A DNA stretch of 64,000 nucleotides from Candidatus Saccharimonadota bacterium (GCA_012965045.1 DTSZ01000001.1:812024-876023), one strand, 5' to 3'. Positions 30,172 through 42,166 are shown, numbered from the stretch's first letter. Made by a program: numbers and translations. Notes: a model not told the origin generated them from the sequence alone.

Positions 30172-30510
30172 GTGAATAAGTACGAATTAATCGTATTACT
30201 GCATCCTGATCTAGAAATAGATTTGGATAAACCTCTCGCAAAAGTCGAGAAAATTATTACTGGTCTTGGTGGCAAGATCGAAAAAAAGGATAATTGGGGA
30301 AAGCGCAAACTCGCATACCAGATTGCAAAACAAGACTTTGCTATCTACGTATATTTTGAGTTTGATATTGATGGTACGAAAATTGCCAAGCTTGATTCTA
30401 CCTTAAACATTACCGATGAAGTTATTCGACATCTTGTAACTAAATATGTTGAACCACCAGCTAAAGACGAAGAAAAAGACGACGAAAAAAACAAAAAAGA
30501 GGAGAAGTAA
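30172..30510 (+). CDS. rpsF: 30S ribosomal protein S6
   Basis: GTG start after AAGGAG. MNKYELIVLLHPDLE is the S6 opening, and the C-terminal tail is acidic/lysine-rich. Confidence 0.92.
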   Translation: MNKYELIVLLHPDLEIDLDKPLAKVEKIITGLGGKIEKKDNWGKRKLAYQIAKQDFAIYVYFEFDIDGTKIAKLDSTLNITDEVIRHLVTKYVEPPAKDEEKDDEKNKKEEK

Positions 30511-30984
30511 ATGGCAAAAAGCATCAACCAAGTCGTACTTATGGGTAACCTTACACGTGACCCAGAATTACGCACAACCAGCGGCGGACAATCCGTTTGC
30601 GCTTTTAGCTTAGCCTTAAATCGAAGCTGGACAGGATCAAACGGCCAACAGCAAGAGTCTGTTGATTTTGTTGACATTGTTGCTTGGGGAAAGCTAGGCG
30701 AGCTCGTAAACCAATACATGAGCAAAGGACGACGCTGTTTAATAACCGGACGTTTAAGTTCTAGTAGCTGGGAAGCTCAAGATGGCAGCAAACGAAGCAA
30801 ACTCGAAGTAACTGCAACTGATGTAACATTTCTAGATGGTGGTTCTGGTTCGTCTGACCAAGGCGGCTCACAGCCAAGCCAATCTAGCTCAGCAGCACCC
30901 GCTAAGCCGAAAAAGAACGACGATGTTGTTGTAGAAGACGTCGACGAACAAAAGCCAGTCGACCTATCTGACATACCCTTTTAA
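30511..30984 (+). CDS. ssb: single-stranded DNA-binding protein
   Basis: OB-fold N-terminus NQVVLMGNLTRDPELR, a Gly/Ser-rich linker and the canonical C-terminal DIPF. Confidence 0.95.
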   Translation: MAKSINQVVLMGNLTRDPELRTTSGGQSVCAFSLALNRSWTGSNGQQQESVDFVDIVAWGKLGELVNQYMSKGRRCLITGRLSSSSWEAQDGSKRSKLEVTATDVTFLDGGSGSSDQGGSQPSQSSSAAPAKPKKNDDVVVEDVDEQKPVDLSDIPF

Positions 30985-31130
30985 GCATAGCTTAAAACAA
31001 TTTACAATTATCATTTAACAATTCACATTAAATTTTCATTGAACAATTATCGAATCTATTTTAAAACGAAAATTGTTAAATTAATGAAAATTGAAAACTG
31101 TAAAATGTGAAATTTCCTGAAAGGAACTCC

Positions 31131-31331
31131 ATGGCAAAAAAGCACTTAAAGAAGAATGAAATCGAACACTTTGACTACAAAGATTTTAAGACTCTCCAAA
31201 GATTCGTAAACCCGTATGGTCAAATCGACGCTCGCAAAAAAACTGGACTCAGTGAAAAGCAGCAAAAAGCTCTGACCAAGGCTATTAAACGAGCTCGACA
31301 CATCGCACTATTACCATTCGTTGCAAACTAG
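31131..31331 (+). CDS. rpsR: 30S ribosomal protein S18
   Basis: Start at ATG 31131 gives MAKKHLKK...FDYKDFKTLQRFVNPYGQI...KQQKALTKAIKRARHIALLPF. Confidence 0.93.
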   Translation: MAKKHLKKNEIEHFDYKDFKTLQRFVNPYGQIDARKKTGLSEKQQKALTKAIKRARHIALLPFVAN

Positions 31332-31340
31332 GGGCACTGT

Positions 31341-31898
31341 ATGTTGTCTATTACAGATCTTAAAAAGGGAACACTGATCACGATCGACAATCAGCCGTTT
31401 AAAGTGGTCGAGTACGCCCAAAAACAAATGGGTCGAGGCGGTTCTATTGTTAACACTAAGCTTAAGAATCTTATTTCTGGAGCAACCGTAAATAAGACTT
31501 TTCACGGTAACGATAAAATAGAGTCCGCTGATGTCAGTAGTCAAAAAGTTCAATTTTTGTACGCCGACACGGCATTGCACTTTATGGACGGCGAAACATA
31601 TGAGCAATTTGAAATTGATCCAGATCTTATTGGCGATCAAGCTCAACTCCTTAAAGAAGGTATGGATGTTACAGCACAATTATTTGAAGGTAATGTGATA
31701 AACGTCGAACTCCCTACAAAAATTAAACTTGAAGTTGTTGAAGCACCAGAGGTCGTCAAAGGCGACACTCAGTCAACCGTGCAAAAAAAGGTAAAGCTTG
31801 AGACCGGCGCAGAAATAATGGCGCCCATATTCGTTAAAACAGGTGATGTTTTAGTGGTAGACTCACGGGACAGTAGCTATGTCGAGCGCGCCAAGTAA
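31341..31898 (+). CDS. efp: elongation factor P (Arg32-type loop)
   Basis: MLSITDLKKGTLITIDNQPFKVVEYAQKQMGRGGSIVNTKLKNL, with a three-domain length of 185 aa. Confidence 0.93.
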   Translation: MLSITDLKKGTLITIDNQPFKVVEYAQKQMGRGGSIVNTKLKNLISGATVNKTFHGNDKIESADVSSQKVQFLYADTALHFMDGETYEQFEIDPDLIGDQAQLLKEGMDVTAQLFEGNVINVELPTKIKLEVVEAPEVVKGDTQSTVQKKVKLETGAEIMAPIFVKTGDVLVVDSRDSSYVERAK

Positions 31899-32448
31899 TA
31901 AATTCCAAGAGTTTATTGCCAACCACACAACCACGCCCGACCGACCGTTCAACAGGTATGAGGAGGCCGAGCAGTGGCTTGAAAACCCATACCTTTCGAG
32001 CGAAACTCGCTTTAATCAACTCGTTAGAAGCGGCGTAAACGCTTTTGGGAGTAATGATGACAGGCTAACTGATACTGCTCGTTCGCGATTGTGGGAGGCT
32101 GTAACTTTGTACAACCATAAGCTCCAAGATATTGAAAACCCACACCTGCAATTTCGTGCAGCCAATGCTATGTTTGTTCTTGCGAAAATAGAATACAGTT
32201 TTGGTATGCCAGACAAGTCATCAGGTTTACTTGATGACGCTCAACAAGAATTGGCATGGTTGCCAGAATCCGAAACATTTGACAATCTAAGTCCTACACT
32301 TCAGGAGCAATTTCGACAGCAAGCCGAAAAAAGGCTAGGGTTGATACATAAATACCAAAAGCGCATAGAGCGCCACACGACATTAATAGGTAGAGCAGGG
32401 GATATTCTAGATAATGCGCTTAGACATAGCCTTAACGAAGTTGCCTGA
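31879..32448 (+). CDS. hypothetical protein
   Basis: 189-aa ORF overlapping the efp stop and the tlyA start. No motif recognised. Confidence 0.5.
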   Translation: MSSAPSNKFQEFIANHTTTPDRPFNRYEEAEQWLENPYLSSETRFNQLVRSGVNAFGSNDDRLTDTARSRLWEAVTLYNHKLQDIENPHLQFRAANAMFVLAKIEYSFGMPDKSSGLLDDAQQELAWLPESETFDNLSPTLQEQFRQQAEKRLGLIHKYQKRIERHTTLIGRAGDILDNALRHSLNEVA

Positions 32449-33187
32449 AATAAATAGCCGTTCGCAAGCTAACAGCCTTATTCGAATGGGAAAAGTTACA
32501 GTTGATGGCCGGACAGCTACTAAACCAGGGCAAACTGTCGACGAAACCAGTAACATAGACGTAGATATTAAAGAAAAATACGTATCGCGAGCAGGTAATA
32601 AGCTGGCGTCGGTTGCTACTATCTTAAAGCTCGACTTTAACGATAAAACCGTGCTCGACGTTGGTTCGTCTACTGGTGGCTTTACCGACTTTGCGCTGCA
32701 ACATGGTGCTAAAAAAGTTATTGCTATTGATGTTGGTACCGAACAGCTTCACCCAAGCCTTCGCGCCGATCAGCGAATTGAGCTGCATGAAAAAACGGAT
32801 ATTAGAAACGTTTTTTTGCGAAAAACCGTTTCAGAAAACAGAAAACAGAAAACAGAGGACAATAAGAATAGGATTTATTTAAAAAAGTCACCAGATATTG
32901 TGGTGATTGACGTAAGTTTTATTAGTTTACGAGAAATCCTACCGTCTATAGCTAATCTTTTATCTGCCAAATCACAAATAGTAGCCATGTTAAAGCCGCA
33001 ATTTGAAGCTGGTGATAATAAAAAACATAAAGGCGTGATAAAAAATAGCGCCATGCGAAGAGCGATACTAAAAGACTTTGAGCAATGGGCAAAACAACGA
33101 TTTGTAATTCAAGCAAAGCAAGATTCTGATGTTTTGGGTAGAAAAGGAAATCAAGAACGGTTCTATTTACTTAAAGCAGCTAAGTAA
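32414..33187 (+). CDS. tlyA: TlyA-family rRNA (cytidine-2'-O)-methyltransferase
   Basis: S4 domain (MRLDIAL...SRSQANSLIRMGKVTVDG) and SAM motif VLDVGSSTGGFTDFALQHGAKKVIAIDVG. A short K/N/E-rich insertion is present. Confidence 0.88.
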   Translation: MRLDIALTKLPEINSRSQANSLIRMGKVTVDGRTATKPGQTVDETSNIDVDIKEKYVSRAGNKLASVATILKLDFNDKTVLDVGSSTGGFTDFALQHGAKKVIAIDVGTEQLHPSLRADQRIELHEKTDIRNVFLRKTVSENRKQKTEDNKNRIYLKKSPDIVVIDVSFISLREILPSIANLLSAKSQIVAMLKPQFEAGDNKKHKGVIKNSAMRRAILKDFEQWAKQRFVIQAKQDSDVLGRKGNQERFYLLKAAK

Positions 33188-33227
33188 TAAAATTGACGTA
33201 AGCGTAATTAAATGCTAAGGTAAATTT

Positions 33228-33443
33228 ATGTCTACAAAAGAACAAAAACGAGTTTTAAAAAACCCTGCTGTTGAAACAGTTTACATTACAGATGAAGACA
33301 ATCAGCCTTTAGGAATCGAACATTCTTTTCTGAATCAAGACGATAAAGAGCGACTTGAACGATTTTTAAAAGGCGCCAGTGACGTTGTGTCAGTTGTTGT
33401 CGATGCACCAGACGGATCTAGCGTAGAAGTAATCCAAGATTAG
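33228..33443 (+). CDS. hypothetical small protein
   Basis: 71-aa ORF, convergent with ychF. No motif recognised. Confidence 0.4.
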   Translation: MSTKEQKRVLKNPAVETVYITDEDNQPLGIEHSFLNQDDKERLERFLKGASDVVSVVVDAPDGSSVEVIQD

Positions 33444-33446
33444 ATC

Positions 33447-34526
33447 TTAAACGTTAAATTTAAATTCCACGACGTCGTCAGGCTTCATTACGTAGGTTTT
33501 GCCTTCGGTTCGAACTTTGCCTGCTTCGCGGGCCTTATGCCACGACTGGGCAGTTAACAGGTCGTCGTAGTTAACGACATCAGCGGCAATAAAGCCACGT
33601 TCAAAGTCTCCGTGAATCACACCTGCCGCTTGCGGAGCAGTGTAGCCTTGTTTTATTGTCCAGGCCTTTGACTCTTTTTCGCCAGCTGTTAGATAGGTTT
33701 GCAGCCCAAGTGTTTCGAACCCAACTCGGCTTAGTCGAGCCAAACCAGATTCTCGCAGCCCATATTCTGCCATAAAAATTGCCGCATCATCACCGTTTAA
33801 TTCGCTAATTTCGGCTTCAACTTTAGCGCTCACAAATACTACGTTGTCGGTTGGCGCCATAGCTTTTAGTTTTTCTTGTTCAGCTTCATCGATTATGCCG
33901 CCCTCGTCTTGGTTGAAAACATAAATAAATGGTTTAGCGGTCAGCAGGTTTAGGTGCTTTACCAGCTGTAAATCTTGATCCGAATTAATTGCTAATTCAC
34001 CACGGTTTAGCGAGTGAATTAGTGCTTCTACTACAGGCATAGACTTTTTTGCTTCTGGGTCAGACTTAGCAAGCCGAGCAAGCTTGGGCTGATGATTTTC
34101 GAGTGTCTGAAGATCCGCCAATATAAGTTCGGCATTAATGATGTCTATGTCGTCTTGGGGGCTAATGCGATTATCAACATGAAGAACGTCGTCGTCCTTA
34201 AACACACGCACAACCTGAGCAATCGCATCTGTTTCACGGATGTGGCTCAAAAAAGCATTTCCCATACCTTCACCTTCGTGAGCACCTTTTACAATGCCGG
34301 CTATGTCTACAAATTTTACGGTAGCAGGAACCGTCTTTTGCGAGTTAAACAATTCAGTTAATTTTTCGAGCCGCTGGTCGGGTACAGGCACAATGCCTTC
34401 ATTCGGTTCAATAGTTGCAAACGGGTAGTTTGCCGCTAGTACATTGTTTTTCGTCAATGCATTAAACAGTGTCGATTTTCCGACATTCGGCAGACCAACG
34501 ATTCCTATAGATAAAGACATAGTCAC
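33447..34526 (-). CDS. ychF: redox-regulated ATPase YchF (Obg-like)
   Basis: GIVGLPNVGKSTLFNALT G1 motif and the C-terminal TGS-like end VVEFKFNV. Confidence 0.95.
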   Translation of the reverse strand: MTMSLSIGIVGLPNVGKSTLFNALTKNNVLAANYPFATIEPNEGIVPVPDQRLEKLTELFNSQKTVPATVKFVDIAGIVKGAHEGEGMGNAFLSHIRETDAIAQVVRVFKDDDVLHVDNRISPQDDIDIINAELILADLQTLENHQPKLARLAKSDPEAKKSMPVVEALIHSLNRGELAINSDQDLQLVKHLNLLTAKPFIYVFNQDEGGIIDEAEQEKLKAMAPTDNVVFVSAKVEAEISELNGDDAAIFMAEYGLRESGLARLSRVGFETLGLQTYLTAGEKESKAWTIKQGYTAPQAAGVIHGDFERGFIAADVVNYDDLLTAQSWHKAREAGKVRTEGKTYVMKPDDVVEFKFNV

Positions 34527-34614
34527 TAGTATAGGGCGGCAGGGCGAATGTTAAAAGTGCGAAAGGGGTCGTTCGCTTTGCTATACTTGCCTTAAGGTTA
34601 GGTCCTTACAAACT

Positions 34615-35634
34615 ATGATAAACAAAAACGAATTTTTTGAGCTAGTAAATCGCTACCCGTCGCCCCATAACGGCCAACCAATGCGCTTAAAGACATTGGA
34701 TAATAATACGTATGAAGTTTATTTTCAGAAAGAGCGCGGGCTGCAATCTACGGGAGTGTCATTAATTTTTAGTTTTGTAACCGTTGGCTTATTTTTTGAG
34801 TATCTTCATCAAAGCGGTCGAGCCCTTGGTCATTCTGTCCAAGCCGAAGTTAATCTGCCGGAGATCAGTAAACTAAAAGGTACAGGGCTAATAAGATGCG
34901 GCCTAGTCAAAATAGACTGGAATACTAGCTCACCGGACAAACAATACAAGCAAGCTTTGCTTTTTAGGCAGACTTCCAGAAAAAAGTACCATGCACCACT
35001 GTCAAAAGAAGCAATCATTGGCATTGAGAGTTGCATTCCGACAAATATGAGCTTAATTCAATTAGACAAAAAACAGGCCCACGATGCGATTTGGCTTAAT
35101 CAAAGAGCTGTATTCGATGACATGTTTAACGAACCGGTGCGCAAAGAGCTAGATCATTGGTTGCGTTATTCAAAAAAGAAGATAATACAGACTAAAGATG
35201 GGCTTGCGTATGACTGCATGGAATTAAACGGCACTCTAATGAAATTCATCACAAATCACCCATCCTTTTTACGGATGCCAATATTGAAAACGTTAATAAA
35301 ACAGTACTATCTACGCACCATGAAAGACAATAGTTGTGTTTTCTATATTATGGCTCCCTTCAAGACGGCTCAAGACTCGTTCGGTGTTGGTAGTGCAATT
35401 ATGAAAATTTGGCTAAAAATTGCCGAGAACGGCGACTATCTACATCCGTTTGGAACAATCATAAGTAATAAAAAAGCCCATCAAGACTTTTTGAACTTAG
35501 TCGGTAAGCACAACGAGTCAAAAGAAGAGTCCTACTTGGTATTCATTTTTAGAGCAGGTCAATCTAAAAAACCGGCTCAAAGTTTGCGGAAACCCTGGCA
35601 GGAGCATCTAGTAATTAACGGAGAAACAAAATGA
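34615..35634 (+). CDS. Acg-family nitroreductase-like (tandem nitroreductase fold) protein
   Basis: YPSPHNGQPMRL matches APSxHNxQPWRW, LLFRQTSRKKYH matches LLRRTDRxxF, and the C-terminus has FIFRAGQS. The 339-aa length matches Acg-type proteins. Confidence 0.55.
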   Translation: MINKNEFFELVNRYPSPHNGQPMRLKTLDNNTYEVYFQKERGLQSTGVSLIFSFVTVGLFFEYLHQSGRALGHSVQAEVNLPEISKLKGTGLIRCGLVKIDWNTSSPDKQYKQALLFRQTSRKKYHAPLSKEAIIGIESCIPTNMSLIQLDKKQAHDAIWLNQRAVFDDMFNEPVRKELDHWLRYSKKKIIQTKDGLAYDCMELNGTLMKFITNHPSFLRMPILKTLIKQYYLRTMKDNSCVFYIMAPFKTAQDSFGVGSAIMKIWLKIAENGDYLHPFGTIISNKKAHQDFLNLVGKHNESKEESYLVFIFRAGQSKKPAQSLRKPWQEHLVINGETK

Positions 35635-37169
35635 AGTACATTTACATCTTTATGGTCACCATTTTAGATAAACTAATTTGGTATGTAGACGTTGGTCCAT
35701 CAGTTCACAGAATTTTCCTTGCGCCGCAAGTTGGTAATTTTAGGGTTTTTCTAGGGAGGATTAGGGCAGTTCGTTTATGTTTATACGCATGGCGCCGTGT
35801 ACCTGCGTATAAAAATTTTATTGAGAGCCAACGCCCTTTTAAAGGCCCAACAATAAATTTTAAAGGCGCCCAACTCAATGATTTGCCAGAAATGGATAAA
35901 GATTCATACATTAAGCAATATAATCTTCTAGACAAGCTTGTTGATAGAAACCTACCGGCTGAAGGAGTTATGTTTGATGAATCATCCGGCAGTAGCGGTA
36001 AACCAACAAGCTGGGTTCGTGGCCCAAAAGAGCGTCGTTTTGTACAAAGAATCATGCAAGTTTCATTCCAGCATGTAATGGTAGATAGACAGCCGATTAT
36101 TTTGAACACATTTTCTATGGGAGCCTGGGCTACTGGAATAAACACAACCATAAATTTGGTTGGCGTCAGTCGAGTTAAGTCACTTGGTCCGGATGTTGTT
36201 AAAGTTATCGATACGCTTCTAGAGTTAGGGCCGGAGTTTGAATATGTTATTTGTGGGTATCCGCCTTTTTTAAAGCTTATTACCGAAACTAAAGAAATTG
36301 ATTGGTCGAAATATAAAATTACTGCAATTTTTGGTGGTGAAGGCATTAGCGAAGCGATGCGTGACACGTTGCTTGAATATTATACGGAGGTGATCGGATC
36401 ATATGGTGCTTCTGACTTAGAAATAAACATTGCTCACGAATCCGAATTCACGATTGCGCTAAGACGCGCCTTGCAAGAAGATGATTCTTTAAAGAAAGCT
36501 CTTATAACTCAAAATCGGGGTATTTTACCGATGATTTTTCAATACAATCCGTACGATTATGTGATTGAAACAAACAAAAACGGCGAGCTAGTTGTAACTA
36601 TTTGTCGTTTAGAAAATATTAGTCCGCGCATTAGGTACAACATACACGACCTTGGACATGTCGTTCATTTTTATGAGCTTAAAAAAATCTTACGCAGTGC
36701 AGGGCGTCAAGATATCTTAGATAAAGCAGAGTTTGATTTTGGTGTTATGTTCCACTACGGGCGGAGTGATCTTTCCGTTGATTACAATGGTGCTGTGGTG
36801 GGGCCTGAAGAAGTAAAACAGATAATTAACGCTCATGCATTTGCTTCAAAAATTAAAGGATTTCGCTTAATAAGCTACGAAGATAAAACATCTTCTAAGC
36901 ACCTAATGATTGCGGTTGAGTTAGAGGAGGGTACAAAGCTCAAAAAAACTGATCAAAAACAATTACTCGACGAAATTATCACCCAGCTTAAAATTATGAA
37001 TCTAGACTTTAAGTCTGCTTATTCTACAGCCGCCAATAAACCAGAGTTAAAAGCCTACGAATACGAAACAGGAATTTTTGATGTTGAACATCAAAAACTT
37101 AAAAATGACTACGTTTGGAACATTGACTACAAGCGAGCAGTTAAGGAGAAAATTTTGCTCGAAAGCTAG
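35631..37169 (+). CDS. adenylate-forming ligase, PaaK / coenzyme F390-synthetase-like (ANL superfamily)
   Basis: ATGA overlap with the upstream stop. Motifs are WRRVPAYKNFIES, the P-loop-like FDESSGSSGKPTSW, and GYPPFL. Confidence 0.6.
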   Translation: MKYIYIFMVTILDKLIWYVDVGPSVHRIFLAPQVGNFRVFLGRIRAVRLCLYAWRRVPAYKNFIESQRPFKGPTINFKGAQLNDLPEMDKDSYIKQYNLLDKLVDRNLPAEGVMFDESSGSSGKPTSWVRGPKERRFVQRIMQVSFQHVMVDRQPIILNTFSMGAWATGINTTINLVGVSRVKSLGPDVVKVIDTLLELGPEFEYVICGYPPFLKLITETKEIDWSKYKITAIFGGEGISEAMRDTLLEYYTEVIGSYGASDLEINIAHESEFTIALRRALQEDDSLKKALITQNRGILPMIFQYNPYDYVIETNKNGELVVTICRLENISPRIRYNIHDLGHVVHFYELKKILRSAGRQDILDKAEFDFGVMFHYGRSDLSVDYNGAVVGPEEVKQIINAHAFASKIKGFRLISYEDKTSSKHLMIAVELEEGTKLKKTDQKQLLDEIITQLKIMNLDFKSAYSTAANKPELKAYEYETGIFDVEHQKLKNDYVWNIDYKRAVKEKILLES

Positions 37170-37199
37170 GCAGAGAAGTAAAGAAGCCAAAAGGGAGGT

Positions 37200-37410
37200 G
37201 GAGGTGTGTTTGTTTAGAGTTGTGGCGACTTCAATGAACTTCGCAAAAGACCTTTTACGACGCACCCAGTATACCAACTCCAACACAAACTCTTTACTAT
37301 ATCCTCGACCAGTATCCGGCTGCGGCATTTCAAAGGAGAGGAAATACGGTATAGCTAACTCTTCGCTATCCCTATAGATAAACTCGTGACCTTTGATTAT
37401 AGATGATACG
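37200..37410 (-). pseudogene. possible GNAT-acetyltransferase remnant (no usable start, N-terminus missing)
   Basis: The minus-strand frame reads ...IIKGHEFIYRDSEELAIPYFLSFEMPQPDTGRGYSKEFVLELVYWVRRKRSFAKFIEVATTLNK. This resembles GNAT motif A. It is bounded upstream by a TGA and runs into the ligase 3' end. Confidence 0.2.
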
Positions 37411-37456
37411 AAACAGATTCATAGTTATTTTTATTACTTGAAGGTAATATGGATTA

Positions 37457-37849
37457 ATGGATAACACAAAACAACTTTGTTCCTTTTGCAAAGAAAATAA
37501 CCTACTTAGAGTTAATGTGCTATACGAAGATGATCTGTGGTACATAACGGACATGGAACAGGGAAGTATTAATAATGCCGCACTGGCTATAACAAAGCGA
37601 CATATCTCTACTCCTTTTGAACTAAATAAAGGAGAGTGGGTGGCTTTGCAGGAAATCATAAACAAAATGAAATCCTTTGTTGACGACAAAGAGATTCCAG
37701 ATGGCTATAACATTGGCTGGAATGTTAATAAAACTGGTGGACAAAATGTAGCACATGCGCACTTGCATCTATTAGCTCGATACAAAGACGAACCGCTTGC
37801 TGGTAAAGGAATCCGTCACATATTTAAACAGCCTGAAAACAAGCGATAA
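37457..37849 (+). CDS. HIT-family protein (second copy in the window)
   Basis: N-terminal CSFCKENN and the histidine triad HAHLHLLARY. Confidence 0.75.
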   Translation: MDNTKQLCSFCKENNLLRVNVLYEDDLWYITDMEQGSINNAALAITKRHISTPFELNKGEWVALQEIINKMKSFVDDKEIPDGYNIGWNVNKTGGQNVAHAHLHLLARYKDEPLAGKGIRHIFKQPENKR

Positions 37850-38003
37850 AAATAATTAGTCAAAATTAGTGAATTTAAAAAAATTACATAGAGTTTCGCT
37901 AAAAATACTAAAGTCGACAAAAAGTAAATATTATGCTAATGTATATATAATATTATTAAACTAAAAACCATAAAAATAATAATTTGCATTCTAGCTAGCC
38001 ATT

Positions 38004-39632
38004 ATGTCAGAAAGTACTCACAACCCTACAAATGTCGAAACCTCTCTGAAGGACGTGAGTGACTATTTTAGCCAGGTGTCTAATAGCGTAATCACAGGGA
38101 GCGACAAATTTCCAGATGGCTACGATGGCATCGCGTCTGAATTACGTGGTATAAGAAAAAGACTTCAAGAAGATACAGAAGCAAATGGGCATGATATAGC
38201 TGCTTATTACTCTGTATTCAAGCAAGAGAAAAATCTGATGAACACTGTGTTTGGTAAAGAACCCAAATCTACTGATTTCGAAAGATTTTTGGGCTACTTC
38301 TCTGATGACAAAATTGCGACTGCACTTACAGCCGAAGATGCACAAGGAGCACTTCACCAAGATTTGCTTAGTACCTTAGACCAAGCACGCAGAGATAGTC
38401 AAAGATATGCTGCTGGTAAAATAATTTCGATTCTTCAAATTCAGCATGGCAAGGATCAGGCGGCTGATCTCATTACCGACCCAGGAACAGAGAGAAGCGA
38501 ATTCGACTGTGCAGTACGGGAAATGCTGGTACATAAGACAACTATAGAAGCTATGATGCACAAGGATATTACTTATGAGGTTGGTGTTTCTTGGGGTGAA
38601 CGGCAAAGGGTTGTTCAGACCTGGTTTGAGAATATAGTAGTGTCAGCATACTCTATGGAGCCAGAAGAAGCACAAAAGTATGCTTTTACCGTTTCCAGAC
38701 GTGGTTATGCGGAGAATATTGCGCAGTTTATTTCACATATGGACCATTTCGGCCCTAAGAGTGTTAAAGCACTGACTACAGAAACTGGTATCTACAGCTT
38801 AGAAAATTACACAGTAGAACAATTAGAGCGCATGGTGCGGTTGTCTGATGACCCTCATGCACTGGCCGAGGAATTGAGTAATCACGATGTAACTGTATAT
38901 ATGGCGAACGCTCTTGGTGATCACAATGGTGTGCTCGGAGATGGCCCGGGATTATTTGATTCAAATGGGCGTACGCTGTTTTTTGAAATTAGTTCTCCAA
39001 CAGACATATACCGCCATATGCTACGGTTAGAAAAAGTTGGCATACAGCCTTCAACATTTGTATTAGCCGCTCACGGTGCCGAGGGACAGTTAAGTATTAG
39101 CGACAGAAGTAGTCCTGAAAGACGTCGAAGATTCATTGCAACCATTTCAGGTAAACAAATGGTCGATGCTTTCAACGCAGATCACCACGAATCTGGAGAT
39201 TTTGGTATAGCTATTCGCGATTCAAAGTCTTTAGGTAGATTAACAGAAGAATTTATGCAGCCAAGTCGTGCAATAGATGATCCAGAAGAAGCTCAAGGCA
39301 AAAAGAGAATAATAATTAAAGCTTGTAGGGCAGCTACTAGCACAGACTCGTACAACAAAGCTAAAGATGGTACAAAAGTAAGTTTAGGTGAAGATTCTAT
39401 TGTATCCGTAATTGCTAGGCAGATATGTGAGCTTGGGGGCGATAATGTTGAAGTGTATGGAGCAGATACATCTATTCAAATGAGAAAGAATGAATCAGGT
39501 AGCGGAGTTGAATACACCGCTTTGTCTAAAGAGAGAATACGAGAACATACTGACGTCGTCAGGGCCCAAGTCCAGGATGGTGCTACGTCGTATGACAGCA
39601 TTGATGAGATTCTGCTCACTAAAAAGATTTAG
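38004..39632 (+). CDS. hypothetical 542-aa cytoplasmic protein; the C-terminal half has a caspase/CHAT-like His...Cys arrangement
   Basis: Preceded by a 150-nt very AT-rich spacer. A strand-HG (STFVLAAHGAEGQL) is followed ~85 aa later by a strand-C (KRIIIKACRAATS). Confidence 0.6.
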   Translation: MSESTHNPTNVETSLKDVSDYFSQVSNSVITGSDKFPDGYDGIASELRGIRKRLQEDTEANGHDIAAYYSVFKQEKNLMNTVFGKEPKSTDFERFLGYFSDDKIATALTAEDAQGALHQDLLSTLDQARRDSQRYAAGKIISILQIQHGKDQAADLITDPGTERSEFDCAVREMLVHKTTIEAMMHKDITYEVGVSWGERQRVVQTWFENIVVSAYSMEPEEAQKYAFTVSRRGYAENIAQFISHMDHFGPKSVKALTTETGIYSLENYTVEQLERMVRLSDDPHALAEELSNHDVTVYMANALGDHNGVLGDGPGLFDSNGRTLFFEISSPTDIYRHMLRLEKVGIQPSTFVLAAHGAEGQLSISDRSSPERRRRFIATISGKQMVDAFNADHHESGDFGIAIRDSKSLGRLTEEFMQPSRAIDDPEEAQGKKRIIIKACRAATSTDSYNKAKDGTKVSLGEDSIVSVIARQICELGGDNVEVYGADTSIQMRKNESGSGVEYTALSKERIREHTDVVRAQVQDGATSYDSIDEILLTKKI

Positions 39633-39757
39633 TCTTTAACTAATCCTGTGACTTTGGTTATATTTTGATGATATTCATTGGATGGTTAATCCGACAATAG
39701 ATCCTGCGCGACATATTTACTAGAACTTAACGAAGTAAGTTACTATAATATTCAAAC

Positions 39758-40495
39758 ATGTCAACTGCAGATTCCGATACTATTTTACAGAGCGTTGTTA
39801 ATCATTTAGCGATTATTCCAGACGGAAACCGTAGATGGGCGAAATCCCAGGGTATTTTTGGTACTCTAAAAATGTACGACCAAGGGGCTGACCGCGCAGC
39901 CGAGGTTATTCGAGCAGCGTTTGAGCACGGCGTTACTACTGTCAGTTTTTGGGGAAGTTCAGCAGCCAACCTTACTAAACGCAACGGCAAAGAAGTGGAG
40001 GTGTTGGAGCGAATTTATAGTGTTTTTTCACAAAAACTTATAAACGAAGAAGACGTTCATAAACACGAAGTTCGGGTTGAAATAATCGGTAAATGGAAAA
40101 ACTTACTCGGTGAAGCAACAATAGCAAATCTACAAAAGGTAGTTGATGATACAAAGCAGTACAACAAGCGGCGATTAGTTCTATTGATTGGCTATGACGG
40201 CGTTGATGAACGCAGCGCAGCTGTTGAATCGATACTCCAAACCCGTGAAGACACCGACATTGACGGCAACACACTTCTACGCCAGCATTCTTGGACAGGA
40301 CACATACCAGATGTCGATCTTATAATTCGCACCGGAGCTTGGGAAGACCCACATAACAGCGTGGGCTTTTTGAGTCTATTAACAGATAACACGCAATATG
40401 CTTTTCCTCAGGTGTTGTGGCCCGACTTTAAAGTCGAAAAACTACAAGAAGTCTTAGACGACTTTAACGAACGTGAACGCCGCTTAGGCAAGTAA
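39758..40495 (+). CDS. uppS: isoprenyl transferase (undecaprenyl-diphosphate synthase)
   Basis: HLAIIPDGNRRWAK, plus the later motifs IRTGAWE and FLSLL. Confidence 0.92.
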   Translation: MSTADSDTILQSVVNHLAIIPDGNRRWAKSQGIFGTLKMYDQGADRAAEVIRAAFEHGVTTVSFWGSSAANLTKRNGKEVEVLERIYSVFSQKLINEEDVHKHEVRVEIIGKWKNLLGEATIANLQKVVDDTKQYNKRRLVLLIGYDGVDERSAAVESILQTREDTDIDGNTLLRQHSWTGHIPDVDLIIRTGAWEDPHNSVGFLSLLTDNTQYAFPQVLWPDFKVEKLQEVLDDFNERERRLGK

Positions 40496-40501
40496 AAAAA
40501 C

Positions 40502-42166
40502 CTATTCAGATCTGCGAGAGTAATATTCTGGTGACACAGTAGCTGGCCGCCAGTCGTTTTCTGTAGGCATACTTGTTCGTGCACTTAGAGCCTCGCTGAC
40601 TATTTCTCGGTGTTCATGTGCTGTTGTAACGGGATAGGCGAGTGCTAAATTATACGTTGAGTCTGTGTAAACTCTCGGTATATTCAGAACTTGTAGGTTA
40701 TTTGAGTGTTGGGGGCTATTCGTTTGTGTAGTTTGTATAATATGCGCAATATCTGTTTCAGATTCATTTTCGGATTGTTCTGCTGGTGTAAATTCTGCAG
40801 CAGCAGTCCGTAGATCAAGAGACACAAACCTAATATCTCCGGATTCATTAAAAGTTTGTACTGCAATATACTCCACATTTTCGTCAGTTAATGAGGTGAG
40901 TGGTGTCTCTCGCGCAGGATCTTTAAGTTTAATGATAGGGTTTTGAATAATTATTATTCCTGAATTTGAGTCTAAGTCATCCAGAGATTGATCATTCTGG
41001 TGTGATTCGGTCAGCTCAGTATCTGGCTGTACAATCAGTGCACCCTGTAAAAATAAAATACCATTATCGGATCGGATTGAATCTACAACATTATCAGTTA
41101 CATCGTGGCCTGATACCATAGAAGGGATAGCGCCACTTGCTTGGATGGCGTCTCTTAGCTTAGATTCATAATAGGTATATGCTTTTTCACCATACCACTG
41201 CTCTGGCCCCTGTTCTTGCCTTTGAGCCTCTGTTGTATCACGAATAAAGGTAGGGAAGTTTGGTATAAGCATTTGCACTCTCTGACTCATAAGCTCTAAC
41301 TTATAGTGAAAAGGCGACCCGTGGTGAGGGTCGTTGTCTTGCGGAAGCCCATACTTAATTAAAAATTCAAGAGACTTGGCTCTATCTTCAGCTACATTAA
41401 TCATTGCGTACGGAGAAGCAAACTCTTGGGTGGGGCTAACCATGAAATATTCGGGAGAGAGGACAGCGTAGCTTTTATTTCTGTAAGCGCTGAAACCCAA
41501 ATAATCCACTGTATTCATATTCGCAAAGTCCGCATCCGCCCAAAAATCACTCTCATTTGATTCATGGTCTACGCATAAGACATCATCAAGTGCGTGACTG
41601 AGTTCATGGTCAATAGCTTCAGTTTCTTCGTCCAATATTAAGGATATAGAGTGTACCTCTCCAAGGTAGTAGCCACCGACTGAGCCATCTATTGATTTAA
41701 CTATTCTGATTGTGTCTACCATGCGCGGTAAAATTGATTGAGGGTATTTACTAAGTGATTTCACTAAGCCACTTATAAACCATCTATATCTATAGTTGTC
41801 TCTACCGGAAGCCTCTCCGGAGAAATCACTATCTTCAAAGTATTCTTCTTGGTAAGAACCTTGGTTATTAGTTTGGTCCGCAATAGAAAATTGCACATCA
41901 TAATATTCTGTCAGATCAATTAATAAGTCAGGCAGGTCTTCCAGACCCCCATGGACATACTCTGCCCATAAGTCGTTCATAAATTCAGTATGATTGTCTG
42001 AAATAGCTTCTGGTTCAATGTCGGGTGAAAGTGAGTCGCAGTCAGCAGCAGATACTGCAGTACTGTGCTGAGTTTCTTCTTGAGCGGACGCTGCCGTAGC
42101 GCCCAGCATTAATGCAGCGCTCAGGCCAGTAGCGATTATTTTCTCTTTAGTTTTTTGTTCAAACAT
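40502..42166 (-). CDS. secreted HExxH zinc metalloprotease (possibly M34/ATLF-like)
   Basis: Signal peptide MFEQKTKEKIIATGLSAALMLGATAASAQE. The motif IDHELSHALDD is followed by candidate third-ligand Glu sites (TQEFASPYA, NVAEDRA). Confidence 0.6.
   Translation of the reverse strand: MFEQKTKEKIIATGLSAALMLGATAASAQEETQHSTAVSAADCDSLSPDIEPEAISDNHTEFMNDLWAEYVHGGLEDLPDLLIDLTEYYDVQFSIADQTNNQGSYQEEYFEDSDFSGEASGRDNYRYRWFISGLVKSLSKYPQSILPRMVDTIRIVKSIDGSVGGYYLGEVHSISLILDEETEAIDHELSHALDDVLCVDHESNESDFWADADFANMNTVDYLGFSAYRNKSYAVLSPEYFMVSPTQEFASPYAMINVAEDRAKSLEFLIKYGLPQDNDPHHGSPFHYKLELMSQRVQMLIPNFPTFIRDTTEAQRQEQGPEQWYGEKAYTYYESKLRDAIQASGAIPSMVSGHDVTDNVVDSIRSDNGILFLQGALIVQPDTELTESHQNDQSLDDLDSNSGIIIIQNPIIKLKDPARETPLTSLTDENVEYIAVQTFNESGDIRFVSLDLRTAAAEFTPAEQSENESETDIAHIIQTTQTNSPQHSNNLQVLNIPRVYTDSTYNLALAYPVTTAHEHREIVSEALSARTSMPTENDWRPATVSPEYYSRRSE

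What the first reader, a model, noticed from the sequence alone, without database searches (positions are those of the whole stretch)
34615..37849. Acg-type nitroreductase-like gene coupled to a PaaK/F390-synthetase-like ligase, with a HIT protein nearby
The 339-aa tandem-nitroreductase-fold protein (PSPHNGQPMRL, FRQTSRKKYH) ends inside the ATG of a 512-aa adenylate-forming enzyme (SSGSSGKPTSW); the ATGA overlap implies co-translation. A HIT-family nucleotide hydrolase/transferase follows 290 nt downstream. HIT enzymes act on acyl- and aminoacyl-adenylates and phosphoramidates. Neither Acg-family proteins nor this ligase subfamily have an established function. The combination (adenylation, flavin redox, adenylate hydrolysis) is not a pathway I recognise and looks out of place in a minimal genome. 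It may make, detoxify or modify a small molecule or peptide at the host interface.
Basis: partly seen in the sequence, partly recalled or inferred. Interest (0 to 1): 0.55.

Follow-up and report, generated by a model that had tools for sequence, protein, structure and literature searches.

The report
Coupled flavoprotein–adenylating ligase gene pair
Two overlapping genes in this Saccharibacteria genome encode an uncharacterised flavin enzyme and an ATP-using acid-activating enzyme that travel together (and are sometimes fused) across several bacterial phyla, so they almost certainly work as one unit on an unknown substrate; the nearby HIT gene is unrelated.

Summary
A 339-aa gene (34615-35634) and a 512-aa gene (35631-37169) overlap by ATGA, and a HIT gene follows 287 nt later.

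The first protein is a single-chain tandem-nitroreductase flavoprotein. Its only full-length structural match is MsAcg 2YMV, and its FMN-site motifs are invariant. The second is a divergent PaaK-type adenylate-forming ligase with every adenylation motif intact. Both score far below the curated Acg and PaaK cut-offs.

The pair is a conserved two-gene module:
- It is adjacent in 53 of 55 genome loci (Saccharimonadia and Actinomycetota) and also in Bacteroidota and Verrucomicrobiales contigs.
- The genes lie within -8 to +10 nt of each other in 56 of 57 junctions.
- The order is reversed in another actinobacterial clade, and the two are fused in seven proteins.
- Their distances co-vary (r = 0.94).

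No third gene is conserved. HIT is never adjacent elsewhere, and composition matches the flanks.

The best reading is ATP-dependent carboxylate activation coupled to FMN-dependent oxidation. This parallels the ThiF-FDO oxazolone synthetases (OxzB, TyzBC, TrzS) but uses a different activating enzyme. The substrate is unknown, with weak hints towards lipids.

I found no paper describing this pairing. I rate it a new variant of a known kind, of moderate interest.

The parts
34527..34614 (.). 88-bp intergenic region between the divergently transcribed ychF gene (33447-34526, minus strand) and the flavoprotein gene. It is the presumed promoter and 5' UTR, and it contains a hairpin followed by a T-run at 34559-34576.
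   Evidence: ORF map, sequence, hairpin from the pattern scan. No Rfam match. Its function is inferred only.
34615..35634 (+). Gene 1: a 339-aa single-chain tandem-nitroreductase-fold flavoprotein. It is Acg-like, belongs to the FDO subgroup of the nitroreductase superfamily, and has one composite FMN site.
   Evidence: NCBIfam Acg family NF047509 at E 2.4e-19, 70 bits, full length but below the 199-bit cut-off. AF2 pLDDT 92. Foldseek 2YMV E 5e-13, TM 0.70. Residues invariant across all clades are P15, H18, N19, Q21, R118, T120, R122, Y125, R313, G315 and R325, which match the classical FMN-site motifs.
35631..35634 (+). ATGA overlap: the ligase start codon shares bases with the flavoprotein TGA stop codon (translational coupling).
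   Evidence: Sequence. The same -4 overlap occurs in 27 of 57 loci and a -8 overlap in 13. Of the 57 junctions, 56 lie between -8 and +10 nt.
35631..37169 (+). Gene 2: a 512-aa divergent PaaK-type (ANL class I) adenylate-forming ligase.
   Evidence: NCBIfam PaaK at E 3.2e-7, 29 bits, against a cut-off of 700. AF2 pLDDT 85. Foldseek matches PaaK2 2Y4O, PaaK1 2Y27 and BT_0428 4R1L at E about 1e-18, and also NatL2, AjiA1 and ClxA. Invariant motifs are the P-loop D116-R130, YGASD 258-262, R335/D340/G342, GRxD 377-380 and K491.
37170..37456 (.). 287-nt spacer between the ligase and the HIT gene. No terminator-like site on the + strand and no known RNA family.
37457..37849 (+). HIT-family (HinT-like) gene. 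It is a neighbour in this genome only and is NOT part of the conserved module.
   Evidence: Pfam HIT 44.3 bits against a cut-off of 21.5. The histidine triad HAHLHLL is in the translation. HIT is absent beside the pair in all other loci.

Best explanation
Genes 34615-35634 and 35631-37169 form a self-contained, translationally coupled two-enzyme module. The ligase uses ATP to activate the carboxylate of a small-molecule substrate as an acyl-adenylate. It then hands the acyl group either to CoA or to another, possibly intramolecular, nucleophile. The Acg-like FMN protein is a member of the flavin-dependent-oxidase (FDO) branch of the nitroreductase superfamily. It oxidises the same substrate or the ligase product, most likely by desaturation. 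The logic matches the ThiF-FDO oxazolone synthetases (OxzB, TyzB+TyzC, TrzS), but a PaaK-type ANL enzyme replaces the ThiF-type cyclase and no acyltransferase gene is attached. Shown: the folds, the intact FMN and adenylation motifs, and the coupling (adjacency, overlap, fusion, co-evolution). Inferred: that both enzymes act on one substrate, the type of chemistry, and the substrate class, which is unknown. Weak context hints favour a fatty-acyl or other lipid-like acid. The HIT gene is an unrelated housekeeping neighbour.
For: Coupling. The pair is adjacent in 53 of 55 loci from Saccharimonadia and Actinomycetota. It is also adjacent in a deep Patescibacteria-like contig, a Bacteroidota MAG, a Verrucomicrobiales contig and two unnamed contigs. 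The order is ligase then partner in Jatrophihabitans, an Actinomycetota MAG and an Acidimicrobiales MAG. Seven ligase-partner fusion proteins exist, and the fused domain in P0309 (and in a further, N-terminally truncated fusion, P0378) scores 129-149 bits on the Acg model. Junctions lie between -8 and +10 nt in 56 of 57 loci. The mirror-tree correlation is r = 0.94, with 0 of 2000 permutations reaching it. Starting from the partner protein, 43 of the 120 listed homologues share a contig length with a listed ligase homologue. No third gene is conserved.

Competence. The FMN-site motifs and all adenylation motifs are invariant across clades. The models are confident and match MsAcg and PaaK folds.

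Precedent. FDOs (TyzC, OxzB, TrzS) are FMN-dependent, O2-dependent desaturases that are adjacent to or fused with an ATP-dependent carboxylate-adenylating ThiF enzyme (PMC10404671, PMC12856293). PaaK-type ligases can act without CoA in heterocycle assembly (NatL2 PMC7204872; ClxA PMC9400959).

Lipid hints. One family member is fused to a LuxD-like acyl transferase. Some relatives lie next to an MMPL/RND transporter, a CDP-alcohol phosphatidyltransferase with lgt nearby, or alpha/beta hydrolases.
Against: There is no biochemical evidence for any member. The partner resembles the Acg/Rv3131 branch (FDO-B, function unknown; MsAcg has been discussed as having an occluded flavin site, from my own knowledge) more than the characterised FDO-A branch. 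On NCBIfam it scores 70 bits for Acg against 16 bits for Rv1355c. No N-acyltransferase, carrier protein or transporter is consistently linked, so the substrate cannot be read from context. Three ligase relatives (L050, L061, L067) lack the partner. The lipid hints come from single loci, while the Micrococcales and Saccharimonadia flanks are housekeeping or variable. Mirror-tree correlation partly reflects shared species history.
Confidence: 0.5

Rival explanations
1. Oxazolone-type synthetase in the strict sense. The ligase adenylates an N-acyl amino acid made elsewhere, cyclisation gives an oxazolone, and the FDO desaturates it. The product would be a tyrazolone- or tryptazolone-like lipid.
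For: Every characterised FDO (TyzC, OxzB, TrzS) does exactly this together with an ATP-dependent adenylating partner. Fusions of the activating enzyme with an FDO occur here too.
Against: No OxzA/TyzA/TrzA-type N-acyltransferase lies next to the pair in about 70 loci, whereas the papers describe it as the typical neighbour. The partner is nearer to FDO-B than to FDO-A. The activating enzyme is of a different superfamily.
Confidence: 0.15
2. Fatty-acid activation and desaturation or oxidation. The ligase makes acyl-AMP or acyl-CoA from a free fatty acid, possibly scavenged from the host, and the flavoprotein desaturates the acyl chain.
For: The lipid-related fusions and neighbours listed above. 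Grigg et al. propose that FDO-B enzymes desaturate lipid species.
Against: Each hint comes from a single locus, and most contexts are housekeeping. PaaK-type enzymes characteristically take aryl or small acids. No acyl-chain-length determinants were tested.
Confidence: 0.2
3. Cofactor modification of the F390 type. The ligase AMPylates a flavin or deazaflavin held by the nitroreductase-fold protein, acting as a redox-stress switch.
For: Source annotations call the ligase 'CoF (F390) synthetase'. After MsAcg, the next structural matches of the partner are the F420/FMN-binding FbiB C-terminal domain and BluB.
Against: The name is an annotation carried over from the source records, and no curated model supports it. 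As far as I know, Saccharibacteria are not known to make F420, and I did not test this. The invariant carboxylate-adenylation motifs fit ordinary ANL chemistry.
Confidence: 0.05
4. One reading: the ligase, the flavoprotein and HIT form one pathway, with HIT hydrolysing or proofreading the adenylate.
For: HIT lies 287 nt downstream on the same strand, with no predicted terminator in between.
Against: HIT is absent from the neighbourhood of the pair in every other locus. The one HIT seen within 5 kb of a fusion gene (L057) sits in a phoH-ybeY housekeeping cluster on the other strand. In S. epibionticum the HIT gene lies elsewhere and is non-essential.
Confidence: 0.03
5. Classical phenylacetate or aryl-acid catabolism (a true PaaK), with an accessory nitroreductase.
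For: The PaaK fold is the best structural match. JGI names the protein phenylacetate-CoA ligase.
Against: The protein scores 29 bits against the 700-bit equivalog cut-off. No paa genes appear in any neighbourhood. Identity to the PaaK structures is 14-17%.
Confidence: 0.03
6. The Acg-like protein is a non-catalytic flavin-storage or flavin-sensing protein that regulates the ligase or is regulated by it.
For: MsAcg, the closest structure, has been proposed to sequester FMN (my own knowledge of the 2YMV paper). Fusion and coupling would also fit a regulatory subunit.
Against: The characterised FDOs are true oxidases. The putative active-site residues are strictly conserved across phyla.
Confidence: 0.07

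Closest known systems
ThiF-FDO oxazolone synthetases (OxzB of Pseudoalteromonas rubra; TyzB+TyzC and TrzS/Rv1355c of M. tuberculosis)
   Same: A roughly 340-aa tandem-nitroreductase FDO is adjacent to or fused with an ATP-dependent enzyme that adenylates a carboxylate. Both adjacent and fused architectures exist. MsAcg 2YMV is the nearest solved structure for the FDO part in both cases.
   Different: The activating enzyme here is a PaaK-type ANL ligase, not a ThiF/E1-like protein. There is no linked N-acyltransferase. The partner scores higher on the Acg (FDO-B) model than on the Rv1355c (FDO-A) model. The product is unknown.
Acg / Rv3131 / Rv3127 family (FDO-B; structure MsAcg 2YMV)
   Same: A single-chain tandem nitroreductase fold with a full-length HMM and structural match, and the PSxHNxQP and RxTxR FMN motifs.
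   Different: 70 bits against the 199-bit cut-off and 14% identity to 2YMV. The mycobacterial genes are stand-alone members of the DosR regulon, not coupled to a ligase.
Phenylacetate-CoA ligase PaaK (2Y27, 2Y4O, 4R1L)
   Same: The fold and all adenylation motifs.
   Different: 14-17% identity and far below the equivalog cut-offs. It has an N-terminal extension of about 65 aa, no paa operon, and unknown dependence on CoA.
CoA-independent PaaK-type ligases NatL2, AjiA1 and ClxA (benzoxazole pathways)
   Same: The same structural family at E about 1e-15. They are precedents for a PaaK-type adenylate being captured by a non-CoA nucleophile on the way to a heterocycle (PMC7204872, PMC9400959).
   Different: Those enzymes sit in biosynthetic clusters with amidohydrolases and have no nitroreductase-fold partner. 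Sequence identity is about 14%.
Other ATP-coupled nitroreductase-fold dehydrogenases: azoline oxidases of TOMM systems (McbC/SagB type) and cyclodipeptide oxidase AlbAB
   Same: A nitroreductase-fold FMN enzyme performs a C-C or ring dehydrogenation on a substrate prepared by a separate enzyme (AlbAB: PMC11055893; TOMM systems: my own knowledge).
   Different: Those are dimeric or filamentous nitroreductases, not the single-chain tandem type, and they act on peptides or diketopiperazines. No precursor peptide or cyclodipeptide synthase is linked here.
HIT / HinT nucleotide hydrolases
   Same: The 130-aa neighbour has the HIT domain and the histidine triad.
   Different: It is not linked to the pair in any other genome.

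Membership tests
Acg family FMN-binding oxidoreductase (NCBIfam NF047509) | Whole-protein HMM score at or above the curated cut-off of 199 bits | tested here: not met
   70 bits, E 2.4e-19, full-length alignment 15-331. The actinobacterial partners score 113-126 bits.
Acg family / FDO subgroup of the nitroreductase superfamily | Single polypeptide of about 340 aa with two fused nitroreductase half-domains | tested here: met
   AF2 pLDDT 92. 2YMV is the only full-length Foldseek match (TM 0.70, E 5e-13). Ordinary nitroreductases cover only half of the protein.
Acg family / FDO subgroup | One composite FMN site (RxS/TxR phosphate motif, PSxxNxQP segment, C-terminal basic residues) | tested here: met
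   P15, H18, N19, Q21, R118, T120, R122, Y125, R313, G315 and R325 are invariant in 13 partners from all clades. The motif aligns with RRTDR of 2YMV. This is sequence-level evidence only; flavin binding itself was not tested.
FDO-A (oxazolone-type FDOs) | Adjacent to or fused with a ThiF-like cyclase, with an N-acyltransferase nearby | tested here: not met
   The partner is a PaaK-type ligase, and neither ThiF nor an acyltransferase is conserved in the neighbourhoods.
Acg / DosR-regulon nitroreductases | Induction by hypoxia or NO through DosR | not testable with these tools
   No expression data are available. One distant locus has a GerE-type two-component system next to the pair, which is anecdotal.
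Phenylacetate-CoA ligase PaaK (TIGR02155 / NF041878) | Equivalog HMM score above the cut-off | tested here: not met
   29.3 bits against 700, and no TIGR02155 hit for the window protein.
PaaK-like clade of ANL adenylate-forming enzymes | PaaK fold with an intact P-loop, YGxTE-like motif, hinge GRxD and C-terminal catalytic Lys | tested here: met
   Foldseek E about 1e-18 to 2Y4O, 2Y27 and 4R1L. The motifs are invariant in 16 diverse members.
PaaK (functional) | Located in a paa phenylacetate-catabolism gene context | tested here: not met
   No paa genes appear in any neighbourhood examined.
Coenzyme F390 synthetase | AMPylation or GMPylation of F420, in an F420-producing organism | not tested
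   Only a name carried over from the source records ('CoF synthetase'). There is no curated model hit. The F420 genes of this genome were not examined.
HIT family (Pfam PF01230) | Domain score above the gathering threshold and an HxHxHxx triad | tested here: met
   44.3 bits against 21.5. HAHLHLL is in the translation.
   No HIT match in 55 loci at E 1e-2.
Known anti-phage defence systems (PADLOC) | Match of either protein to a defence-system model | tested here: not met
   No hit at E 0.1 for either protein.

The most novel reading that the evidence does not exclude
The PaaK-type ligase and the Acg-like FDO together form a previously unrecognised, phylogenetically widespread class of two-component (sometimes fused) ATP- and flavin-dependent synthetase. 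It would make an unsaturated or heterocyclic acyl metabolite. The version in Saccharimonadia is closest to that of Actinomycetota, the phylum of their known hosts. It was exchanged anciently between the two lineages and acts on a host-derived lipid or acyl-amino acid at the episymbiont-host interface. This would also give the first functional handle on the enigmatic Acg/Rv3131 (FDO-B) branch.
Probability: 0.2. Interest if true: 0.75.

Novelty: new variant of a known kind. Interest (0 to 1): 0.5.

Why it matters
Saccharibacteria have very small genomes, so an enzyme pair kept at 60-72% identity across the class is likely to matter for their biology. Its nearest relatives are in Actinomycetota, the phylum that supplies their known hosts.

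The Acg/Rv3131 branch of the nitroreductase superfamily includes dormancy-regulon proteins of M. tuberculosis with no known reaction. A ligase-coupled, and in some organisms fused, relative gives a concrete biochemical hypothesis: the flavoprotein acts on an adenylate-activated acid. It also offers tractable test organisms in Arthrobacter and Leucobacter.

Finally, it extends the "ATP-dependent activation plus FDO oxidation" logic of the oxazolone synthetases to a second, unrelated class of activating enzyme.

Tried and rejected
- Pfam gave no hit for either protein.
- A single-sequence PDB search gave nothing. Profile searches gave only 2YMV (E 3.7e-6, N-terminal half) and 4R1L (E 0.013).
- PADLOC gave no hits for the pair.
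- Rfam gave no matches across 33000-40000.
- The promoter and terminator scan gave nothing convincing.
- A search for a third conserved gene, by ORF clustering of 55 loci and a pooled Pfam scan of 98 actinobacterial neighbours, found only housekeeping genes.
- A conserved precursor-peptide gene (the RiPP idea) was rejected. The 71-aa ORF at 33228-33443 has no counterpart in other loci.
- Apparent 800-1000-aa "fusion" ORFs in GC-rich actinobacterial loci were rejected. They are just the ligase frame staying open upstream, and the partner lies in another frame. Real fusions were found only among metagenomic proteins.
- The 336-aa ORF upstream of the betaproteobacterial ligase (L050) is not a partner.
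- Literature searches for the pairing and for Saccharibacteria-specific reports found nothing.
- The annotation tables of S. epibionticum list no PaaK/ANL-fold protein or tandem nitroreductase. This suggests, weakly, that the pair is absent from that oral lineage.
Full report
**Observation.** They are 34615-35634 (+, 339 aa), 35631-37169 (+, 512 aa) and 37457-37849 (+, 130 aa). The quoted peptide strings are present. The first two genes overlap by ATGA. The HIT gene begins 287 nt after the ligase stop. The window comes from a Candidatus Saccharibacteria genome: both proteins have 100% identical database entries on a 929,678-bp contig. The pair's composition is unremarkable. Its GC is 0.38-0.40 and its GC3 0.34-0.41, against 0.38-0.47 and 0.33-0.40 for neighbouring genes.

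**What the proteins are.** Pfam recognises neither protein. NCBIfam gives a full-length but sub-threshold match of the first to the Acg family (70 bits, cut-off 199). It gives a weak match of the second to PaaK (29 bits, cut-off 700). AlphaFold2 models built on about 100 homologues are confident, with pLDDT 92 and 85.
Ordinary dimeric nitroreductases, FbiB-C and BluB match half of it. It is therefore a single-chain tandem nitroreductase.
- The second model matches PaaK1/2 and BT_0428 best. Next come 2-hydroxyisobutyryl-CoA ligase and the CoA-independent PaaK-type ligases NatL2, AjiA1 and ClxA.

An alignment of partner proteins from every clade keeps PSxHNxQP, RxTxRxxY, R313-x-G315 and R325 invariant. 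These are the elements that build the FMN site in classical nitroreductases (established knowledge), and the RxTxR motif aligns with RRTDR of MsAcg. An alignment of 16 diverse ligases keeps the P-loop DESxGSxGxPxxWxR, YGA(S/T)D, RYNxHDxG, GRxD and a C-terminal lysine (K491) invariant. Both proteins therefore look catalytically competent.

**The pair is a conserved unit.** A scan of one genome per species with the ligase returned 55 loci. Tblastn finds the partner directly upstream in 53 of them. One exception is a truncated contig, and the other is a 35%-identical betaproteobacterial relative. About half of these loci are Saccharimonadia (ligase 60-72% identical, partner 48-58%). The other half are Actinomycetota: Arthrobacter, Leucobacter, Leifsonia, Agromyces, Promicromonospora, Pseudonocardia and others (ligase about 45%, partner 26-30%).

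Further look-ups show the same order in several other places:
- a deep-branching Patescibacteria-like contig that also shares the window's rpsF-ssb-rpsR-efp-tlyA neighbourhood;
- a Bacteroidota MAG;
- a Verrucomicrobiales contig, where the partner is split into two ORFs;
- two unnamed contigs.

A separate, mainly actinobacterial clade has the reverse order, ligase then partner. That clade contains seven proteins of 806-869 aa in which the two are fused. The fused C-terminal domain of P0309, and of a further N-terminally truncated fusion (P0378), scores 129-149 bits on the Acg model.

Three further measures agree:
- The stop and start codons lie between -8 and +10 nt in 56 of 57 junctions, with a 4-nt overlap in 27 and an 8-nt overlap in 13.
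- Pairwise distances of the two proteins correlate at r = 0.94, and 0 of 2000 Mantel permutations reach that value. Part of this correlation reflects shared species history.
- Starting from the partner instead, 43 of its 120 listed homologues share a longest-contig length with a listed ligase homologue.

Three ligase relatives lack a partner: a betaproteobacterium, a Limnocylindria MAG and a Pyrinomonadaceae MAG.

**What is not part of it.** No third gene is conserved. ORF clustering over 55 loci finds nothing shared beyond close relatives. A pooled Pfam scan of 98 actinobacterial flanking genes returns housekeeping functions such as sucCD, pcrA/uvrD, pgm and mscL. HIT is never found beside the pair, even at E 1e-2. 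In the genetically studied oral Saccharibacterium Southlakia epibionticum, the HIT gene lies between a tRNA-Ser gene and rlmH and is scored non-essential. That genome's annotation tables list no PaaK-fold protein or tandem nitroreductase. This is weak evidence, because the stored files may be truncated. PADLOC and Rfam give nothing for the region. The module is thus neither a biosynthetic cluster in the usual sense, nor a defence island, nor a recent insertion.

**How it most likely works.** The closest characterised relatives of the partner are the flavin-dependent oxidases (FDOs) defined by Grigg et al. (PMC10404671). TyzC, OxzB and TrzS bind FMN and desaturate N-acyl amino acids or their cyclised oxazolones using O2. 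Each is adjacent to or fused with a ThiF-type enzyme that adenylates the substrate carboxylate (PMC12856293). The module described here repeats that architecture, as an FDO plus an ATP-dependent carboxylate-adenylating enzyme that can be adjacent or fused. The activating enzyme, however, comes from a different superfamily.

Two sets of precedents make this chemistry plausible. PaaK-type enzymes that use a non-CoA nucleophile on the way to a heterocycle are known: NatL2 (PMC7204872) and ClxA (PMC9400959). Nitroreductase-fold enzymes that dehydrogenate C-C bonds are also well documented: AlbAB (PMC11055893).

I therefore propose that the ligase forms an acyl-adenylate and the flavoprotein oxidises the same molecule. 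The substrate cannot be read from context. There is no linked N-acyltransferase, which argues against a strict oxazolone pathway. Scattered hints point to lipid-like acids:
- a family member fused to a LuxD-like acyl transferase;
- an MMPL/RND transporter beside one relative;
- a CDP-alcohol phosphatidyltransferase, with lgt nearby, beside another;
- alpha/beta hydrolases beside two more.

By HMM the partner is closer to the Acg/Rv3131 branch (FDO-B), whose reaction is unknown, than to Rv1355c/TrzS. The analogy is therefore one of logic, not of orthology.

**Phylogeny.** In a neighbour-joining tree of ligases with 100 bootstraps, the Saccharimonadia are monophyletic (100%). They are sister to the actinobacterial partner-then-ligase clade (94%), and the two together have 100% support. 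The Bacteroidota, Verrucomicrobiales and unnamed lineages fall outside, and the ligase-then-partner and fusion clade is separate (100%). Cultivated Saccharibacteria grow on Actinobacteria (abstract of PMC10633639). The pattern is therefore compatible with an old transfer between the two partner lineages. The direction is unresolved and the sampling is thin.

**Comparison and novelty.** Neither protein passes the curated membership tests for Acg or PaaK, although both pass the fold and motif tests. The system works like a ThiF-FDO synthetase but is not a member of that family. Full-text searches found no paper describing a PaaK-type ligase coupled to an Acg-like FDO, or these genes in Saccharibacteria. 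I classify it as a new variant of a known kind.

**Verdict.** Interest is moderate (0.5). This is a widespread, testable, uncharacterised enzyme pair that could give the first biochemical handle on the Acg branch, but it has no demonstrated chemistry yet.

Noticed in passing
window 38004-39632 (+) and 40502-42166 (-): Two large ORFs (542 and 554 aa) have no Pfam, NCBIfam or PADLOC match. The 554-aa protein begins with a signal-peptide-like segment (MFEQKTKEKIIATGLSAALMLGATAASAQE), so it may be a secreted or surface protein of the episymbiont.
   Followed up: partly
window 30172-33187 compared with L063 414-3321: The rpsF-ssb-rpsR-efp-tlyA/ftsJ block lies next to the pair both in this window and in a contig whose ligase is only 48-49% identical. 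In L063 the block is inverted relative to the pair. It is absent from the 6-kb flanks of the other Saccharimonadia loci.
   Followed up: partly
window 34559-34576 (+): A GC-rich hairpin followed by a T-run (GCGAAAGGGGTCGTTCGC TTTGCTATAC) lies about 40 nt upstream of the flavoprotein start, in the 88-bp divergent intergenic region. It has no Rfam match, and it could be a 5'-UTR element or chance.
   Followed up: no
L025 and L052 (both Arthrobacter sp. OVS8, CP116670.1): The chromosome carries two copies of the pair. The copy near position 1 (L052) matches only in several broken tblastn segments for both genes, which suggests a decaying paralogue. L020, L048 and L051 also show a ligase split into two segments.
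   Followed up: no
L002 (labelled uncultured Rickettsiales) and L015 (labelled Candidatus Buchananbacteria): These contigs carry pairs 64-69% identical to the Saccharibacteria ligase and fall among Saccharimonadia sequences. They are probably mis-binned or mislabelled MAG contigs.
   Followed up: no
L050 7417-8991 and L064 7580-8188: A betaproteobacterial ligase relative without a partner is followed directly by an MMPL/RND-type transporter gene. The Bacteroidota pair is followed 14 nt later by a CDP-alcohol phosphatidyltransferase, with lgt nearby. These are possible pointers to a lipid substrate.
   Followed up: partly
P0335, P0348, P0351 (971-988 aa) and about 15 proteins of 590-720 aa: Many ligase-family members carry N-terminal extensions of about 130-220 aa or about 500 aa that match no Pfam or NCBIfam model. 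P0342 (1174 aa) carries a LuxD-like acyl transferase domain.
   Followed up: partly
L057 2803-3159 (-): A HIT gene lies about 5 kb from a ligase-FDO fusion gene, but on the opposite strand and inside a phoH-ybeY-type housekeeping cluster. I judged this a coincidence.
   Followed up: yes
window 31879-32448 (+): A 189-aa ORF overlaps the 3' end of efp by 20 nt and the start of tlyA by 35 nt. It was not examined with any family library.
   Followed up: no
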